Source: a virus. From it: a stretch of DNA of 41,571 bases. Below are positions 33,206-38,360 of the stretch, in pieces. The stretch is taken from UHGV virus genome UHGV-0131723. One strand, given 5' to 3'. Position numbers and translations under genes: made by a program. Positions within the stretch are counted from its first letter, which is position 1; each line of letters starts with the position of its first letter. The notes under the pieces are model-generated. The model had not been told where the DNA came from. It searched no databases and was given only the letters and a program-made list of their open reading frames with translations.

Positions 33206-33282
33206 CTCTGTTTAGCTCAGCTTGGTAGAGCGTTCCGTTTGGGGCGGTAAGGCCGGAGGTTCAAGTCCTCCAACAGAGACCA
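33206..33282 (+). tRNA. tRNA-Pro (anticodon UGG)
   Basis: Hand-folded cloverleaf; acceptor CTCTGTT/AACAGAG, T-arm GGAGGTTCAAGTCCTCC, loop TTTGGGG, CCA encoded. Confidence 0.6.
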
Positions 33283-33289
33283 AATTAAT

Positions 33290-33367
33290 GTTCCAGTAGA
33301 CAAAACGGTAAAGTCACCACTCTTTCAAAGTGGATATCTGAGGGTTCAAATCCCTTCTGGAACGCCA
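33290..33367 (+). tRNA. tRNA-Glu (UUC)
   Basis: Acceptor GTTCCAG/CTGGAAC; anticodon stem CCACT/AGTGG, loop CTTTCAA; CCA encoded. Confidence 0.7.
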
Positions 33368-33457
33368 GTTTTGACAGAAGACCAATTACAGCAAACTTAA
33401 TCTACTCATCTGAAAGTTAATCGGACAAAGAAGATATTTGGTCTGGTCATTAAGAAT

Positions 33458-33534
33458 TGCGGGTATAGAGAAAGGGCGTCTCACATGTCTCATTAGCATG
33501 GTATCGGCAGGTTCGACTCCTGCACCCGCCTCCA
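33458..33534 (+). tRNA. tRNA with CAU anticodon (Met, fMet or Ile-lysidine)
   Basis: Loop CTCATTA; T-arm GCAGGTTCGACTCCTGC; 1:72 U-C mismatch. Confidence 0.6.
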
Positions 33535-33611
33535 ATTTTGCAGAAGGCCGTATTCAGCAACAAAATACTTTTTGCGGATAAAAGAAAAAACACGGTCTGG
33601 CAATGTATTAA

Positions 33612-33688
33612 GGTTAGGAAGCACATAAGGTATGTGCGGTCGCCTGTTAAGCGAATGGCACAGGGTTCGAATCCCTGACTAACCGCCA
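33612..33688 (+). tRNA. tRNA-Asn (GUU)
   Basis: Loop CTGTTAA; T-arm CAGGGTTCGAATCCCTG; CCA encoded. Confidence 0.7.
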
Positions 33689-33696
33689 AATTAAAT

Positions 33697-33784
33697 GTGT
33701 CGTTATCCCGTAGATGGTAGCGGTGGGGACTGTAAATCCCTTGTCATTGAGACTCGGTAGGTTCGACTCCTACACGGCACACCA
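33697..33784 (+). tRNA. tRNA-Tyr (GUA), long variable arm
   Basis: 88 nt; loop CTGTAAA; T-arm GTAGGTTCGACTCCTAC. Confidence 0.7.
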
Positions 33785-33789
33785 ATAAA

Positions 33790-33866
33790 GGCTATGTAGT
33801 TTAACTGGAGAAAATACTCCCCTGTCACGGGAGATGATGTGAGTTCAAGTCTCATCGTAGCCGCCA
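33790..33866 (+). tRNA. tRNA-Asp (GUC)
   Basis: Anticodon stem CTCCC/GGGAG, loop CTGTCAC; CCA encoded. Confidence 0.7.
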
Positions 33867-34073
33867 ATTTTGAGAGGGCTATTTAGCCCCTCCCTTAAAG
33901 AGTTCTTACGAGTATTCTTTAAAGGAGCAGAAGACCAAATTCAGCAAGAACGTATGATATTTTCAAGCCAATTTAATTTTGAAAAAATTTAAAACTTGGT
34001 CTGGCTCAACAAATTTACAGAAGACCGTTTACAGCAAAACTTAAACAATCTATTTCTCCGGTAAAGAAAAGGC

Positions 34074-34126
34074 GAAGGTTCGATTCCTTCACTCGGCAGA
34101 TGTCGAGTTGGTGTAATGGTAGCACT
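34074..34126 (+). other. Permuted tRNA halves (3' T-arm/acceptor fragment then 5' acceptor/D-arm fragment)
   Basis: GAAGGTTCGATTCCTTC-ACTCGGC is followed 5 nt later by GTCGAGT-TG-GTGTAATGGTAGCAC; the two acceptor strands are complementary but in reverse gene order. Confidence 0.45.
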
Positions 34127-34298
34127 TAAGATGATAAACAACGGTCTGGTAATTGTCTTTGTAGATAAGTTATTAAGCTTACCTGTGAGTATGCGACCAC
34201 AAAGGGTGAAAGGGTAAATTCTAGATTTAAACCCAAAAAGGCACATCGCTACAGACCTTAAGCAAGTCTGGGTAGCTTATCTACAAAGATAATTTAAT

Positions 34299-34374
34299 GG
34301 AAGTGTAGCAGAATGGTGATGCGGCAGACTTTTAATCTGACAGGCGATGGGTTCGAATCCCTCCACTTCTACCA
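34299..34374 (+). tRNA. tRNA-Lys (UUU)
   Basis: Loop CTTTTAA; T-arm GATGGGTTCGAATCCCTCC; CCA encoded. Confidence 0.7.
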
Positions 34375-34378
34375 AAAT

Positions 34379-34455
34379 GGTTCAGTCGCAGATAAGGTAA
34401 TGCAAGGGTCTCATAAGCCCTATGAATGTGGGTTCGATTCCCATCTGAACCTCCA
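34379..34455 (+). tRNA. tRNA with CAU anticodon (Met, fMet or Ile-lysidine)
   Basis: Loop CTCATAA with GGG/CCC-rich anticodon stem; CCA encoded. Confidence 0.65.
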
Positions 34456-34457
34456 AT

Positions 34458-36203: not shown

Positions 36204-36446
36204 ATGCAAACATTAATCGTCGTTGAACATGAAAATCCCAATAGTATTGAGTTTGTAAGGGTTCCCACTATAGATACCCACATTTTCTTGAAAGTCGGAT
36301 GGGAATGCGACCCAATAAAAGTAGAAAGATTTATTGGTCATTGCTTTGGTGGAAGACAACTTAAAAGCATCAATTTTGAGACAATGTTACCAGAAAGCTC
36401 AGAAACAAATAATAATGCTTACCTCCTTACGAGGGTTAGACAATGA
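36204..36446 (+). CDS. Hypothetical protein embedded in tRNA cluster
   Basis: ORF track; AGAGGAA RBS. Confidence 0.5.
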   Translation: MQTLIVVEHENPNSIEFVRVPTIDTHIFLKVGWECDPIKVERFIGHCFGGRQLKSINFETMLPESSETNNNAYLLTRVRQ

Positions 36447-37000
36447 GATACTTAAAATATGTTTCATGGATTTTCTTAGCTTTGTTAGAACCATTTGCAG
36501 CAACCCTAGCAGTCATCTTAGCACCTTTCGTAGTTCCATCCTACAGTGAGAAGAAAGGACACTTACCTTTCGGGTTCAGATGGATGGAGACCTATGACAA
36601 CCCAATTGATGGTGATGAAGGTCACGTTAAAAGATGGGCTAATATTAGATGGATTGGTAAGCTGGGTGTCTACATGCAGAGAGTTGGATGGCTCTGGAGA
36701 AACAAAGCTTATAACTTCTCTTACCATGTATTAGGAAGAGATGTAAAAGATGTTACTAAGTGGAAAGGTAATATCAACGTAAGTTCTGACCCCGAAGATA
36801 ATCAGACAGGTTATCTCCTAATGTGGAACAGTAATGCTTGGGGATTATTCGCTTTTATCCCATCAATTAAAATCTTTGGTAAACAATTTTACTGGAGAAT
36901 TTATATTGGATGGAAACTAAAAAGTGTTGTCCCAGAAGAAAGAGCATTCTCAAGGGAAAGAGTTATGTTGGCATTCTTTATTCATCCACTGAGAAAGTAA
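36443..37000 (+). CDS. Hypothetical membrane protein embedded in tRNA cluster
   Basis: ORF track; N-terminal hydrophobic segment; ATGA overlap with upstream ORF. Confidence 0.5.
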   Translation: MRYLKYVSWIFLALLEPFAATLAVILAPFVVPSYSEKKGHLPFGFRWMETYDNPIDGDEGHVKRWANIRWIGKLGVYMQRVGWLWRNKAYNFSYHVLGRDVKDVTKWKGNINVSSDPEDNQTGYLLMWNSNAWGLFAFIPSIKIFGKQFYWRIYIGWKLKSVVPEERAFSRERVMLAFFIHPLRK

Positions 37001-37008
37001 AGATTTAA

Positions 37009-37084
37009 AGGGGATTAGTTTACAAGGTTAAAACCTCGGTCTTTGAAATCGAAGAAGTTGGTTCAATTCCAACATCCCCCGCCA
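37009..37084 (+). tRNA. tRNA-Gln (UUG)
   Basis: Loop CTTTGAA; T-arm GTTGGTTCAATTCCAAC; 1:72 A-C mismatch. Confidence 0.65.
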
Positions 37085-37086
37085 AT

Positions 37087-37165
37087 GCTCCATTACTCCA
37101 ATTGGCAGAGAGGCCAGACTTAAAATCTGTGTTATGTATCGGTTCGAATCCGATATGGAGTACCA
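37087..37165 (+). tRNA. tRNA with UAA anticodon (Leu by code), short variable arm
   Basis: Loop CTTAAAA; T-arm ATCGGTTCGAATCCGAT; discriminator A; 79 nt. Confidence 0.5.
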
Positions 37166-37170
37166 AATTT

Positions 37171-37246
37171 AGCGGTATAGCATAACTGGCAATGCAGCAG
37201 CCTCTGAAGCTGTCCTATTAAGGTTCAAATCCTTATGCCGCTGCCA
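37171..37246 (+). tRNA. tRNA-Gln (CUG)
   Basis: D-arm GCAT/ATGC; anticodon stem GCAGC/GCTGT, loop CTCTGAA. Confidence 0.65.
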
Positions 37247-37277
37247 CTTCTAAGGATTCTTGCGAGAGTCCTTAAAT

Positions 37278-37353
37278 GTGGCCTTATCATAAATGGTAAT
37301 GACCCATGCTGTGAACATGGTCTATACGGGTTCAAATCCCGTAGGTCACCCCA
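37278..37353 (+). tRNA. tRNA-His (GUG)
   Basis: Anticodon stem CCATG/CATGG, loop CTGTGAA; discriminator C. Confidence 0.7.
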
Positions 37354-37359
37354 ATTTAT

Positions 37360-37435
37360 AGTCCAAGTAGCTTATATGGTTAAAGCGCGTGTCTGAAAAA
37401 CATGAGAAGAGGGTTCAAATCCCACTGGACTACCA
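37360..37435 (+). tRNA. tRNA-Phe (GAA)
   Basis: D-arm GCTT/AAGC; anticodon stem CGTGT/ACATG, loop CTGAAAA; acceptor register uncertain by 1 nt. Confidence 0.55.
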
Positions 37436-37451
37436 ATTTCAAAGGTGCTTA

Positions 37452-38186
37452 ATGAAAGAGATGACAGAACAAGGTAAGGAGATTTTTAATCTCTTAAAAA
37501 CCGGTAAAGGGTTCTCTAACCCACTTATTACTGGTGCAGCAGTTCTCGGTGGAACCGTAGCTGCTTCTACATCACTTGTAAGCTCTATTAGTTCTGTAAC
37601 AGACCCTACAATGAAGGAGAAACTTGTTGCTGCTGGACTTACAACAGTCCTTCTAAACAGCTTTACAACAAGCCTGACAAGCACTACAGCAACTACTAAG
37701 ACCCTAACAGAATATGGTCAAAAGTCTATTGATGAGTTTTCATCACGTATGCAGGTAGCAAAGGGATACTCCAATGTTATGGGTGCAGCAGGAGAACAAG
37801 TTGGTTGTACACCATTCAGTGGTATTATGGGTGTTGCTACAGAATATGGTCAAAAAGCTATTGACATGATGAACAGTACACTAGATAGTGTTAATGGTGT
37901 GTTAAGTGACTTACAAGATGCTATTGACAAAGGTCTTGATACTATTTCTGATTTAGCTAACCAAGCTGTTAGTAAGATTAATGAAGGTATTTCGAAGATT
38001 ACAGCTTATGCAGATGAAGTTGTGCAGATGATTGAAGAAGAAGCTGCTCTTATTGCAGAGTACCTTAAAACGAATATCAATGGGTTCTTAGCAGGTATCT
38101 TACCAGACTGGTTTGATGATGCTTGTAAAACTGGTGTGATTGACACTATTGCAACACCAGAAATGAAGAACGCATTACAGAAATAA
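37452..38186 (+). CDS. Hypothetical protein with internal repeat
   Basis: ORF-track GTG start at 37389 lies inside tRNA-Phe; first ATG after AAAGGTG RBS is 37452; repeat TEYGQKSIDEF.../TEYGQKAIDMM... Confidence 0.5.
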   Translation: MKEMTEQGKEIFNLLKTGKGFSNPLITGAAVLGGTVAASTSLVSSISSVTDPTMKEKLVAAGLTTVLLNSFTTSLTSTTATTKTLTEYGQKSIDEFSSRMQVAKGYSNVMGAAGEQVGCTPFSGIMGVATEYGQKAIDMMNSTLDSVNGVLSDLQDAIDKGLDTISDLANQAVSKINEGISKITAYADEVVQMIEEEAALIAEYLKTNINGFLAGILPDWFDDACKTGVIDTIATPEMKNALQK

Positions 38187-38187
38187 T

Positions 38188-38280
38188 GGAAGATTAACCC
38201 TAAAAGGTAAGGGAGCAGTTTGCTAAACTGCCAGTAGCTGAGAAATCGGTGTACCAGTTCAAGTCTGGTATCTTCCTCCA
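38188..38280 (+). tRNA. tRNA-Ser (GCU), long variable arm
   Basis: 93 nt; anticodon stem GCAGT/ACTGC, loop TTGCTAA; T-arm ACCAGTTCAAGTCTGGT. Confidence 0.7.
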
Positions 38281-38284
38281 ATTT

Positions 38285-38360
38285 GAATCCGTGACAGAAA
38301 TGGCTATGTGCCTGTCTGCAAAACAGGTTTATAAGGGTTCGAGTCCCTTCGGATTCTCCA
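38285..38360 (+). tRNA. tRNA-Cys (GCA)
   Basis: Anticodon stem CCTGT/ACAGG, loop CTGCAAA; discriminator U; CCA encoded. Confidence 0.7.

What the first reader, a model, noticed from the sequence alone, without database searches (positions are those of the whole stretch)
33206..38360. Near-complete tRNA complement of about 27 genes with embedded ORFs and promoters
Hand folding gives tRNAs with anticodons for all 20 amino acids (Pro, Glu, CAU x2, Asn, Tyr, Asp, Lys x2, Ile, Arg x2, Trp, Ser x2, Leu-type x3, Ala, Gly, Thr, Val, Gln x2, His, Phe, Cys), most with encoded CCA. The cluster is interrupted by protein genes (36204-37000, 37452-38186) and has its own promoters (33059, 33150, 34548). A set this complete suggests the phage buffers translation against host tRNA depletion or cleavage, or adapts to its own AT-rich codon usage.
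Basis: seen in the sequence. Interest (0 to 1): 0.5.

Follow-up and report, generated by a model that had tools for sequence, protein, structure and literature searches.

The report
Phage tRNA island with Y-like RNAs
The tRNA genes are real, but they are the already published tRNA cluster of Felix O1-type phages; what is new is that the gaps between them hold four small structured RNAs that look like partners of the Ro60-like protein encoded just upstream.

Summary
Rfam confirms 23 and adds a UCU-anticodon element with no D arm (34781-34862). So 19 amino acids are covered by standard calls, and Trp only by the odd element. The ORFs and the three promoter-like sites are also real and conserved.

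The window is a Felixounavirus, 96.5% identical to deposited genomes. Its tRNA array has been published since 2010, so the array itself is already known. Cognate codons are those the phage over-uses relative to E. coli.

Two things were missed. The gene just upstream (31625-33040, DUF2828) has a Ro60 fold. The "gaps" also hold four modules (33372-33449, 33538-33603, 33925-34007, 34015-34152) that share a bulged stem and a WUWCAGCAA motif. The fourth carries a permuted tRNA mimic, as in bacterial YrlA Y RNAs.

A covariance model of the module finds 87 matches in 82 sequences searched, most of them loci encoding this protein family. All 87 lie on the Ro-gene strand. T4-like and T5-like tRNA clusters have none. 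No Rfam family matches. I read these as a new variant of Y RNA. Binding to the protein is inferred, not shown.

The parts
31625..33040 (+). Ro60-like protein gene (471 aa; Pfam DUF2828 + DUF7788; phrog_850 'RNA-binding protein')
   Evidence: Pfam and PHROG matches. AlphaFold model with pLDDT 85.9. Foldseek top hits are Ro60 structures: 2i91_A E=1.6e-7, TM 0.67, then 1yvr, 1yvp and phage phiLo Ro60 9l5y. The MIDAS residues D279, S281, S283, T349 and D381 are invariant in 41 homologues.
33059..33087 (+). sigma-70-like promoter P1 (TTGACA-17-TAATAT)
   Evidence: conserved in L001, L003, L004
33150..33179 (+). sigma-70-like promoter P2 (TTGACA-18-TAAAGT, TG extended)
33206..33282 (+). tRNA-Pro(UGG)
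33290..33367 (+). tRNA-Glu(UUC)
33372..33449 (+). Y-like module M1: 4-bp outer stem, AGA bulge, 7-bp stem AGACCAA/UUGGUCU, G bulge, UUACAGCAA motif
33458..33534 (+). tRNA(CAU) no. 1, low-scoring, with a U1-C72 mismatch
   Evidence: Called by ARAGORN but not by Rfam. Folds as a cloverleaf.
33538..33603 (+). Y-like module M2
33612..33688 (+). tRNA-Asn(GUU)
33697..33784 (+). tRNA-Tyr(GUA), long variable arm
   Evidence: Called by ARAGORN. Rfam places it only under the tRNA-Sec model, below threshold.
33790..33866 (+). tRNA-Asp(GUC)
33925..34007 (+). Y-like module M3
34015..34152 (+). Y-like module M4: the same base stem and motif, carrying a permuted tRNA mimic (V hairpin, T arm GAAGGUUCGAUUCCUUC, closed acceptor-like stem, D arm)
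34160..34298 (+). strongly structured RNA element with a long closing stem; function unknown
   Evidence: RNAfold z=-3.84. Not conserved in Moogle or EcSzw-2.
34299..34374 (+). tRNA-Lys(UUU)
34379..34455 (+). tRNA(CAU) no. 2, with a GGG/CCC run in the anticodon stem and G1-C72 paired
34458..34532 (+). tRNA-Ile(GAU)
34548..34576 (+). sigma-70-like promoter P3 (TTGACA-17-TATAGT, 11 of 12)
34577..34780 (+). conserved non-coding transcript region downstream of P3; function unknown
   Evidence: 92-95% identical in Moogle and EcSzw-2. Only sub-threshold tmRNA-model hits.
34781..34862 (+). non-canonical tRNA-like element with a UCU (Arg) anticodon loop, no D arm and a 23-nt variable region
   Evidence: Rfam 31.7 bits. 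Alignment to canonical Arg-UCU genes. Fold.
35006..35088 (+). non-canonical tRNA-like element with a CCA (Trp) anticodon and an enlarged D region
   Evidence: Not called by ARAGORN or RF00005. Conserved in P778 with compensatory changes. Fold.
35102..35191 (+). tRNA-Ser(UGA), no encoded CCA
35357..35446 (+). long near-perfect hairpin abutting tRNA-Leu(UAG); possible processing site
   Evidence: RNAfold z=-4.94. About 84% conserved in relatives.
35448..35526 (+). tRNA-Leu(UAG)
35534..35609 (+). tRNA-Lys(CUU)
35616..35691 (+). tRNA-Ala(UGC)
35698..35772 (+). tRNA-Gly(UCC)
35779..35855 (+). tRNA-Thr(UGU)
35951..36025 (+). tRNA-Val(UAC)
36027..36104 (+). tRNA-Leu(CAA)
36110..36185 (+). tRNA-Arg(ACG)
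36204..36446 (+). embedded ORF, 80 aa, phrog_14202, unknown function
36443..37000 (+). embedded ORF, 185 aa, DUF7338 / phrog_2143, hydrophobic N-terminus
37009..37084 (+). tRNA-Gln(UUG)
37087..37165 (+). tRNA-Leu(UAA)
37171..37246 (+). tRNA-Gln(CUG)
37278..37353 (+). tRNA-His(GUG)
37360..37435 (+). tRNA-Phe(GAA)
37452..38186 (+). embedded ORF, 244 aa, DUF7217 / phrog_2114, unknown function; syntenic in Moogle and P778
38188..38280 (+). tRNA-Ser(GCU)
38285..38360 (+). tRNA-Cys(GCA)
38398..38457 (+). terminator-like hairpin GCCCUG...CAGGGC followed by a U6 run; likely end of the array's transcription unit
   Evidence: Read directly from the sequence. A second terminator-like site at 38523-38540 comes from the scan.

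Best explanation
This is the tRNA island of a Felix O1-type phage (Felixounavirus), lying between a Ro60-like gene and the terminase gene.

Shown:
- The island holds 25 canonical tRNA genes and two non-canonical tRNA-like genes with UCU and CCA anticodons. Nearly all have an encoded CCA.
- It also holds three conserved protein genes and three conserved sigma-70-type promoters.
- The tRNAs preferentially match the A-ending and rare codons that this AT-rich phage uses far more than its host.

Inferred: host RNA polymerase transcribes the island as polycistronic precursors, and host RNase P and 3'-end processing enzymes cut these up. The tRNAs then supplement or replace the host pool during infection.

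The island is more than tRNAs. Four RNA modules are interleaved with the first tRNAs, with spacers of 3 to 9 nt where they abut a tRNA or each other. Each has a 4-bp outer stem, a 3-nt 5' bulge, a 7-bp inner stem, a 1-nt 3' bulge, and a single-stranded WUWCAGCAA motif right after the 5' strand. The fourth module also carries a T arm, a hairpin-closed acceptor-like stem and a D arm. That is the permuted tRNA mimic known from bacterial YrlA Y RNAs.

Inferred: tRNA processing releases the modules as RNAs of about 70 to 140 nt. They then bind the Ro60-like protein encoded just upstream and form a phage Ro/Y-RNA particle that acts on RNA turnover, tRNA surveillance or counter-defence.
For: tRNAs and identity:
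- ARAGORN and Rfam calls.
- 316 phage records match the region; the best is Escherichia phage VpaE1_ev035 at 96.5% identity, with 26 tRNA features annotated in the same order.
- The Felix O1 genome paper lists the same array.
- Codon test. Promoters.

Ro60-like protein:
- Foldseek probability 1.00 against Ro60 structures with TM 0.67, and an invariant MIDAS motif.
- Homologues are annotated 'Ro-like RNA binding protein' in mycobacteriophages.
- Bas63 gp130, the gene directly upstream of the tRNA genes in that Felixounavirus, is reported as Ro60-like and as a counter to the ppl defence.

Modules:
- All four fold to the same base structure.
- CAGAAGRCC occurs 4 times in the window, all here, against 0.47 expected.
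- In an 11-sequence alignment from four phage lineages (three named genera plus the unclassified P778), 97.5% of cells pair and 8 of 11 pairs show changes on both sides.
- In 35 sequences, 96.4% of cells pair, with 129 double-change cells against 38 +/- 6 in shuffles.
- Covariance model R2 gives 87 hits at E<=1 over 1.2 Mb, both strands searched. All 87 are on the Ro strand, in 44 of 75 distant IMG/VR loci, with none in 49 kb of E. coli.
- Hits lie within about 300 nt of the Ro gene or beside tRNAs, including loci that hold no tRNA at all.
- Modules also occur just upstream of the Ro-like gene of Listeria phage List-36.
- By eye and by fold, three stand after the Ro-like gene of mycobacteriophage Lolly9.
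- T5-like and T4-like tRNA regions, which lack this protein, give no hit better than 17.5 bits, with strands mixed.
- tRNA-mimic payload: RNAalifold on 9 diverse modules predicts the base stem, T arm and closed acceptor-like stem, with 17 of 19 pairs compensated.
Against: - There is no expression, end-mapping or binding data for this phage.
- The Rfam YrlA model does not match any module.
- The YrlA/Y RNA motif GNCGAAN0-1G is absent.
- The thermodynamic z-scores of the single modules are modest, -1.0 to -1.7. The case is comparative, not energetic.
- Alignment A7 was fitted to the model, so its pair counts lean towards the structure.
- Model R1 missed two of the three GC-rich Lolly9 modules and scored the third only weakly (17.7 bits, E=0.1).
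- Bas63 gp130 alone, expressed from a plasmid or from T7, already counters ppl. That activity therefore does not need the phage RNAs.
- Bas63 tRNAs were mostly non-essential on laboratory hosts.
- The two non-canonical tRNA-like genes could be decayed or non-decoding.
Confidence: 0.75

Rival explanations
1. The array is mainly a counter-defence device, not a codon-usage adaptation. On this view the phage tRNAs replace host tRNAs that anticodon nucleases or tRNA-depleting defence systems destroy, or that vanish when the host genome is degraded.
For: - The set is nearly complete, with one tRNA per codon box, rather than limited to rare codons.
- The Sf14 study of a Moogle-like relative favours reliance on the phage pool late in infection.
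- Published cases of phage tRNAs defeating PARIS and retron systems are cited.
- tRNA genes were often mutated during experimental coevolution of a Felixounavirus.
- The adjacent Ro60-like gene is itself a reported counter-defence gene.
Against: - The codon test is positive, so adaptation is not excluded. The two roles are compatible.
- The Sf14 authors judged nuclease escape unlikely for their host.
- No nuclease target or resistant anticodon-loop variant was tested here.
Confidence: 0.4
2. The four modules are not ligands of the Ro-like protein. On this view they are passive punctuation of the polycistronic tRNA precursor, meaning spacer hairpins or RNase E/III processing signals, or simply locally duplicated repeats.
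For: - They abut tRNA genes with spacers of 4 to 9 nt.
- In distant loci many hits lie 1 to 7 nt from a tRNA.
- They are paralogues of one another.
- Their folding energies are unremarkable.
Against: - They are absent from T4-like and T5-like tRNA arrays.
- They occur beside Ro-like genes in loci with no tRNA at all: L053, L039, L042 and L076.
- The single-stranded WUWCAGCAA motif and the bulge nucleotides are kept from enterobacterial phages to Listeria phages, and by eye in mycobacteriophage Lolly9, while the stem covaries.
- One module type carries a YrlA-style tRNA mimic.
Confidence: 0.15
3. The modules are base-pairing or decoy small RNAs that work without the Ro-like protein. They might use the exposed CAGCAA sequence as a seed, or use the tRNA mimic to soak up a tRNA-recognising host enzyme or nuclease.
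For: - The conserved motif is predicted to be single-stranded.
- The tRNA-mimic payload is present.
- gp130 works without the phage RNAs against ppl.
Against: - The modules co-occur with the Ro-like gene, always on its strand, across very distant phages. This argues for a protein partner.
- No target was sought or found.
Confidence: 0.1

Closest known systems
tRNA gene cluster of Salmonella phage Felix O1 and other Ounavirinae (wV8, Moogle, Sf14, Bas63)
   Same: The order of tRNA genes, the embedded ORFs, and the position between the DUF2828 gene and the terminase gene are all the same. Nucleotide identity to deposited Felixounavirus genomes is 94-96.5%.
   Different: Nothing essential differs. 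Published lists give 22 to 26 tRNAs because the low-scoring and non-canonical members are called inconsistently. None of the annotations inspected marks the Y-like modules.
Bacterial YrlA-type Y RNAs with Rsr/Ro60 (Chen et al. 2014, PMC4201824; Rfam RF02553)
   Same: The RNAs are encoded next to a Ro60-fold gene and on its strand. They are modular: a terminal stem plus an effector domain. Module M4 has the same V - T arm - closed acceptor-like stem - D arm order.
   Different: The terminal stem has a different conserved signature, A-AGR...YCU-G with WUWCAGCAA, in place of GNCGAAN0-1G. There is no match to the Rfam model. The protein belongs to Pfam DUF2828/DUF7788, not TROVE. There are several copies per genome, most of them without a tRNA mimic, and they are interleaved with genuine tRNA genes.
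Thermus phage phiLo Ro60 with Yrl1/Yrl2 (PMC12135203), and the Y RNAs of mycobacteriophages, CcrColossus and Bacillus phage G
   Same: A phage-encoded Ro60 homologue has small structured RNAs encoded beside it. For phiLo, binding to the protein and a ternary complex with host PNPase were shown.
   Different: The phiLo RNAs were picked by the CGAA motif. The modules here lack it and were not previously delineated.
Bas63 gp130 (PhageMaP preprint, PMC11482910)
   Same: It is the same gene by synteny, in the same genus. The authors noted its Ro60-like fold and its place directly upstream of the tRNA genes, and showed that it counters the ppl defence.
   Different: They guessed that some annotated tRNA genes might be Y RNAs. 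Here the candidates are distinct, unannotated elements lying between the tRNA genes.
T4 tRNA cluster with the stable RNAs rnaC and rnaD
   Same: Small stable non-tRNA RNAs are encoded inside a phage tRNA array and co-transcribed with it (annotation).
   Different: There is no Ro-like gene nearby, and the module model finds nothing in the T4-like region.

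Membership tests
Felixounavirus tRNA island | Canonical tRNA genes called by automated finders, in an array on one strand | tested here: met
   25 by ARAGORN and 24 by Rfam
Felixounavirus tRNA island | Nucleotide similarity and synteny with Felix O1-type genomes (DUF2828 gene - tRNA array with DUF7338 and DUF7217 ORFs - terminase) | tested here: met
   96.5% identity over 100% of the region. 232 records cover at least 80% of it. Gene order is the same in L001, L003 and L004.
Functional decoding tRNA (for the UCU and CCA elements) | Standard cloverleaf with a D arm, called by tRNA finders | tested here: not met
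   The UCU element has no D arm. The CCA element has an enlarged D region and a 9-nt anticodon loop or a 31-39 mismatch. Relaxed ARAGORN gives no sensible call for either.
Functional decoding tRNA (for the UCU and CCA elements) | Aminoacylation and use in translation | not testable with these tools
   Needs charged-tRNA sequencing or in vitro charging
Ro60 / TROVE protein family (for ORF 31625-33040) | Ring of HEAT-like repeats followed by a vWA domain with a MIDAS motif | tested here: met
   Foldseek hits to Ro60 structures: E=1.6e-7, probability 1.00, TM 0.67. The DxSxS...T...D residues are invariant.
Ro60 / TROVE protein family (for ORF 31625-33040) | Match to the Pfam TROVE profile, or sequence similarity to solved Ro60 proteins | tested here: not met
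   Pfam gives only DUF2828 and DUF7788. phmmer against PDB sequences finds nothing.
Y RNA (YrlA type, Rfam RF02553) | Encoded near a Ro60-type gene and on its strand | tested here: met
   In the window the modules begin 332 nt after the stop codon. All 87 model hits lie on the Ro strand.
Y RNA (YrlA type, Rfam RF02553) | tRNA-like domain in the order V, T arm, closed acceptor-like stem, D arm, between the two strands of a terminal stem | tested here: met
   Met for M4 only. In 9 diverse modules, 17 of 19 pairs are compensated. M1-M3 lack this domain.
Y RNA (YrlA type, Rfam RF02553) | GNCGAAN0-1G motif near the 5' end | tested here: not met
   The 5' strands read CAGAAGRCC, or A-AGR-NNNN in relatives
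Y RNA (YrlA type, Rfam RF02553) | Score at or above the Rfam gathering threshold | tested here: not met
   No YrlA hit on any module even at E<=10. None in nine related loci.
Y RNA (operational definition) | Bound by the Ro60-type protein in vivo | not testable with these tools
   Needs RIP-seq or EMSA
tmRNA (for 34475-34779) | Score above threshold, a tRNA-like domain and a tag reading frame | tested here: not met
   15.4 and 30.2 bits against a threshold of 47. ARAGORN finds no tmRNA.

The most novel reading that the evidence does not exclude
The four modules would be members of an undescribed and widespread class of phage Y-like RNAs. The class is defined by a covarying bulged stem (A-AGR-N4 / N4-YCU-G) followed by WUWCAGCAA.

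On this reading they are the RNA partners of the DUF2828 branch of Ro60-like proteins, which occurs in at least 710 deposited phage genomes, from enterobacterial to Listeria, Staphylococcus and mycobacterial phages. They would be excised from tRNA precursors by tRNA-processing enzymes. They would serve as a common scaffold for interchangeable payloads: a YrlA-style tRNA mimic, a second conserved domain, or plain hairpins.

The resulting particle would redirect host RNA decay or tRNA surveillance, and would contribute to counter-defence of the kind reported for Bas63 gp130.
Probability: 0.5. Interest if true: 0.7.

Novelty: new variant of a known kind. Interest (0 to 1): 0.42.

Why it matters
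The tRNA array alone adds nothing new.

The Y-like modules matter more:
- They give exact coordinates and a searchable model for the RNAs that two recent papers could only guess at. One is the Bas63 gp130 study, which suspected that some annotated tRNAs were Y RNAs. The other is the Listeria phage CKA15 study, which found very abundant unannotated transcripts near the same kind of gene.
- They suggest that a large, unnamed branch of Ro60-like proteins in phages has its own RNA signature.
- They make the role of a phage Ro particle in tRNA biology and anti-defence testable in E. coli with a tractable phage.
- They are a practical warning for annotation. The 'intergenic' stretches of phage tRNA arrays, and the spurious small ORFs called in them, can hide structured RNAs.

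Tried and rejected
- **Rfam at permissive threshold over 32900-38600.** No described family explains the gaps. The YrlA model hits only a chance site at 37299-37421 (17 bits). The tmRNA and permuted-tmRNA hits at 34475-34779 are far below threshold, and ARAGORN finds no tmRNA. The miRNA-family hits at 35353-35452 merely reflect a long hairpin.
- **ARAGORN with thresholds lowered to 60-80%.** It gives no sensible structure for the UCU and CCA elements and adds only spurious antisense calls.
- **phmmer of the upstream protein against PDB sequences.** Nothing was found; only the fold comparison shows the Ro60 relationship.
- **Literature search for DUF2828.** No phage paper was found.
- **Reverse test.** I scanned IMG/VR for the sequence-only pattern AAGANNNNATTCAGCAAA. 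The test is uninformative.
- **blastn of the structured element 34156-34298 against Moogle, EcSzw-2 and P778.** It is not conserved there, so it could not be assessed by covariation.
- **Model R1 on GC-rich mycobacteriophage Lolly9.** One module scores 17.7 bits (E=0.1) and the others are missed. Those modules rest on inspection and folding.
- **Considered and rejected: the modules are a generic feature of phage tRNA arrays.** T5-like and T4-like controls are negative.

Full report

Yes. ARAGORN finds 25 tRNA genes, all on the + strand, from 33206 to 38360. Rfam's tRNA model at its curated threshold confirms 23 of them. It misses the first CAU tRNA at 33458 and the class II tRNA-Tyr at 33697. 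It adds one element at 34781-34859.

- The 'second Arg' (34781-34862) has a 7-bp acceptor stem, a perfect UCU anticodon stem-loop, a T arm and CCA. Only 7 nt stand where the D arm should be, and the variable region is 23 nt. Moogle and Yersinia phage P778 carry an ordinary tRNA-Arg(UCU) at that place.
- The 'Trp' (35006-35088) has an acceptor stem, a CCA anticodon, a T arm and CCA, but an enlarged D region. No tool calls it. P778 keeps it with compensatory changes in the anticodon stem, so it is probably functional in some way.

Standard callers therefore give 19 amino acids. The same number is published for the Moogle-like phage Sf14. The twentieth rests on an odd element.

Other parts of the observation also hold:

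- 26 of the 27 elements end in an encoded CCA (corrected by one base for Trp).
- The embedded ORFs are real, conserved genes of unknown function: phrog_14202, DUF7338 and DUF7217. Relatives annotate all three as CDS.
- Those sites are kept, hexamers included, in relatives from three genera.
- The total number of promoter-like sites is not above chance.

**2. What is it?**

The 5.5-kb region matches 316 phage records. The best match is Escherichia phage VpaE1_ev035, a Felixounavirus, at 96.5% identity over the full length. That record annotates 26 tRNA features in the same order.

The Felix O1 genome paper of 2010 already lists the array. It notes its pseudo-tRNAs and discusses codon compensation. 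The array as such is already known.

I repeated the codon test with 47 ORFs of the window against 58 E. coli K-12 genes:

- Codons cognate to the phage tRNAs are used relatively more by the phage: mean log2 ratio +0.46, against -0.40 for other codons (p=0.017).
- The largest excesses are AGA 9x, CUA 4x, CCA 3x, ACA 2.9x and UUA 2.7x.
- GC3 is 0.34 in the phage and 0.53 in the host.

The set is essentially one tRNA per codon box, with U34 in the four-codon boxes.

**3.

tRNA genes fill only 2123 of the 5155 bases.

The gene directly upstream, 31625-33040, matches only domains of unknown function, DUF2828 and DUF7788. Its AlphaFold model has pLDDT 85.9. Its best structural matches are Ro60 proteins, including the Ro60 of Thermus phage phiLo: E=1.6e-7, probability 1.00, TM 0.67. 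The MIDAS residues of its vWA domain are invariant in 41 homologues.

tblastn finds homologues in 710 phage genomes. Hosts include Escherichia, Salmonella, Vibrio, Listeria, Staphylococcus, Campylobacter, Enterococcus, Bacillus and Mycobacterium. Mycobacteriophage annotators call the protein 'Ro-like RNA binding protein'.

A 2024 preprint on Bas63, a Felixounavirus, reports gp130, the gene directly upstream of the tRNA genes in that phage, as Ro60-like. It shows that the gene counters the ppl defence, and guesses that some annotated tRNAs might be Y RNAs.

**4.

Four modules lie in the gaps among the first tRNAs: M1 33372-33449, M2 33538-33603, M3 33925-34007 and M4 34015-34152.

RNAfold gives all four the same base structure:

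- a 4-bp outer stem;
- an AGA bulge on the 5' strand;
- a 7- or 8-bp stem (AGACCNN / NNGGUCU);
- a single bulged G on the 3' strand;
- a single-stranded UWCAGCAA directly after the 5' strand.

The 9-mer CAGAAGRCC occurs four times in the 41.6-kb window, only here, against 0.47 expected.

M4 also contains a small hairpin, a T arm (GAAGGUUCGAUUCCUUC), a stem closed by a loop at the acceptor position, and a D arm with GG. This is the V-T-AS-D order described for bacterial YrlA Y RNAs. The closed stem differs completely between the window, EcSzw-2 and Moogle, yet it always pairs.

**5. Are the modules more than chance?**

*Within related phages.* The modules recur in Moogle, EcSzw-2 and Yersinia phage P778, whose Ro protein is 53% identical. 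The stem sequence changes there (GGACUGU/ACAGUCC, GGAUUC/GAAUCC) but the motif is kept. On an 11-sequence alignment, 97.5% of cells pair and 8 of 11 pairs change on both sides. Sliding the partner strand drops pairing to 19-42%.

*First model.* A covariance model built from those 11 sequences was run on 80 sources. These included 75 IMG/VR loci chosen only for encoding a distant (38-47% identical) DUF2828 protein. It gave 45 hits at E<=1, all on the strand of the Ro-like gene.

*Second model.* A second-round model gave 87 hits, again all on that strand. They fall in 44 of the 75 loci, with none in 49 kb of E. coli.

*Covariation in distant hits.* The 35 best hits from the first-model search show the consensus A-AGR-NNNN-WUWCAGCAA ... 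NNNN-YCU-G. They have 129 double-change cells against 38 +/- 6 in shuffles. That alignment was fitted to the model, so these counts lean towards the structure.

*Where the hits lie.* Hits sit within about 300 nt of the Ro-like gene or a few nucleotides from a tRNA. Some are in loci with no tRNA at all.

*Other phage groups.*

- Two to three modules lie just upstream of the Ro-like gene of Listeria phage List-36.
- In a close relative, CKA15, very abundant unannotated transcripts were reported within 2 kb upstream of that gene and suspected to be Y RNAs.
- Mycobacteriophage Lolly9 has three modules after its Ro-like gene, the middle one with a textbook T/AS/D mimic. These rest mainly on eye and fold, because the AT-rich model scores one at only 17.7 bits (E=0.1) and misses the others.

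*Negative control.* T5-like and T4-like tRNA regions, which lack this protein, give nothing better than 17.5 bits with filters off, and the strands are mixed. The module follows the Ro-like gene, not tRNA arrays in general.

*tRNA-mimic payload.* RNAalifold on nine diverse tRNA-mimic modules predicts the base stem, T arm and closed stem, with 17 of 19 pairs compensated.

*General link to tRNAs.* Of the 75 distant loci, 35 hold tRNAs. All 266 of those tRNAs are on the Ro strand.

**6. Mechanism**

Shown:

- the tRNA genes;
- conserved promoters at the head of the array and inside it;
- a terminator-like hairpin after the last tRNA;
- modules separated from tRNAs, and from each other, by 3-9 nt;
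- a Ro60-fold protein encoded upstream.

Inferred:

- Host RNA polymerase makes polycistronic precursors.
- RNase P and 3'-end processing release the tRNAs and, as a by-product, the modules with defined ends.
- The tRNAs raise the supply for A-ending and rare codons, and may sustain translation if host tRNAs are lost.
- The modules bind the Ro-like protein through the bulged stem and the CAGCAA motif.
- The tRNA mimic of M4 recruits or distracts a tRNA-recognising factor. This would parallel Rsr/YrlA/PNPase in bacteria and phiLo Ro60/Yrl/PNPase.

I put about 0.95 on the identity of the array. I put about 0.85 on the modules being real conserved structured RNAs. I put about 0.55 on them being ligands of the Ro-like protein. 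The downstream function is open. gp130 counters ppl without them, so they are not needed for that activity.

**7. Comparison with known families**

The array is a member of the Felixounavirus tRNA island on every test.

The protein has the Ro60 fold but fails the TROVE sequence profile.

The modules work like Y RNAs, and M4 has YrlA topology. They fail two defining tests of the YrlA family, the GNCGAA motif and the Rfam model. I therefore file them as a new variant, not as YrlA members.

T4's rnaC and rnaD are a looser parallel: stable non-tRNA RNAs inside a phage tRNA cluster.

**8. Verdict**

The finding as written is correct but ordinary: a known tRNA island, with the standard interpretations partly supported. 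The added value lies in the unannotated Y-like modules and their link to a large Ro60-like protein family in phages. This is supported comparatively, but not yet by any expression or binding data.

Noticed in passing
L013 3121-3240, L034 7728-7836, L018 144-286, L019 1260-1381, L012 7270-7376: In other phage loci with a DUF2828 gene, the same base stem and CAGCAA motif carries a second conserved payload, CCUUUCUGGAGGGGAAAGCAAAAACUCGCC, in place of a tRNA mimic. This suggests a modular scaffold with interchangeable domains.
   Followed up: partly
window 35357-35446: A near-perfect hairpin of about 25 bp (RNAfold z=-4.94) ends one base before tRNA-Leu(UAG). It is about 84% conserved in Moogle and EcSzw-2. 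It could be an RNase III-type processing site or a regulatory element.
   Followed up: partly
window 34160-34298: A 139-nt element closed by a 13-bp stem folds far better than shuffles (z=-3.84). It has no detectable counterpart in Moogle, EcSzw-2 or P778.
   Followed up: partly
window 34533-34780, 34860-35004, 35192-35447, 35856-35950: These non-coding stretches are 84-96% identical in phages of other genera (Mooglevirus, Suspvirus). No ORF or known RNA family explains them. The first lies directly downstream of promoter P3.
   Followed up: partly
window 33383-33392, 33549-33558, 33936-33945, 34026-34035 (motif after each 5' stem strand): The invariant CAGCAA is the two glutamine codons CAG and CAA in tandem. 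The phage encodes both tRNA-Gln(CUG) and tRNA-Gln(UUG). This may be coincidence and was not tested.
   Followed up: no
L086 (Listeria phage List-36) 1-10455: The Ro-like gene sits between a tRNA array and genes annotated as tRNA splicing ligase (RtcB-like), RNA ligase and phosphohydrolase, which together look like an RNA-repair neighbourhood. In the related phage CKA15 the Ro-like protein was detected in purified virions.
   Followed up: partly
relatives of window 33000-38500 (hits H16, H19, H23, H24, H35, H39): Several related phages carry an HNH homing endonuclease gene inserted inside the tRNA array. The window has none.
   Followed up: no
L002 (Yersinia phage P778) 10970-11660: A 690-nt unannotated stretch inside the P778 tRNA array holds two further T-arm-like sequences (GGGTTCGATTCCC) that ARAGORN does not call. 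One follows what looks like a tRNA 5' half split by about 100 nt. These may be further tRNA-like or Y-like RNAs.
   Followed up: no
L002 9584-11536: The P778 record annotates several short 'hypothetical protein' ORFs on the opposite strand across its tRNA and Y-like module region. These are probably spurious.
   Followed up: no
window 31172-31543: The small ORF before the Ro-like gene has an N-terminal GNPSGRPKG motif. It is syntenic in relatives, and its function is unknown.
   Followed up: no
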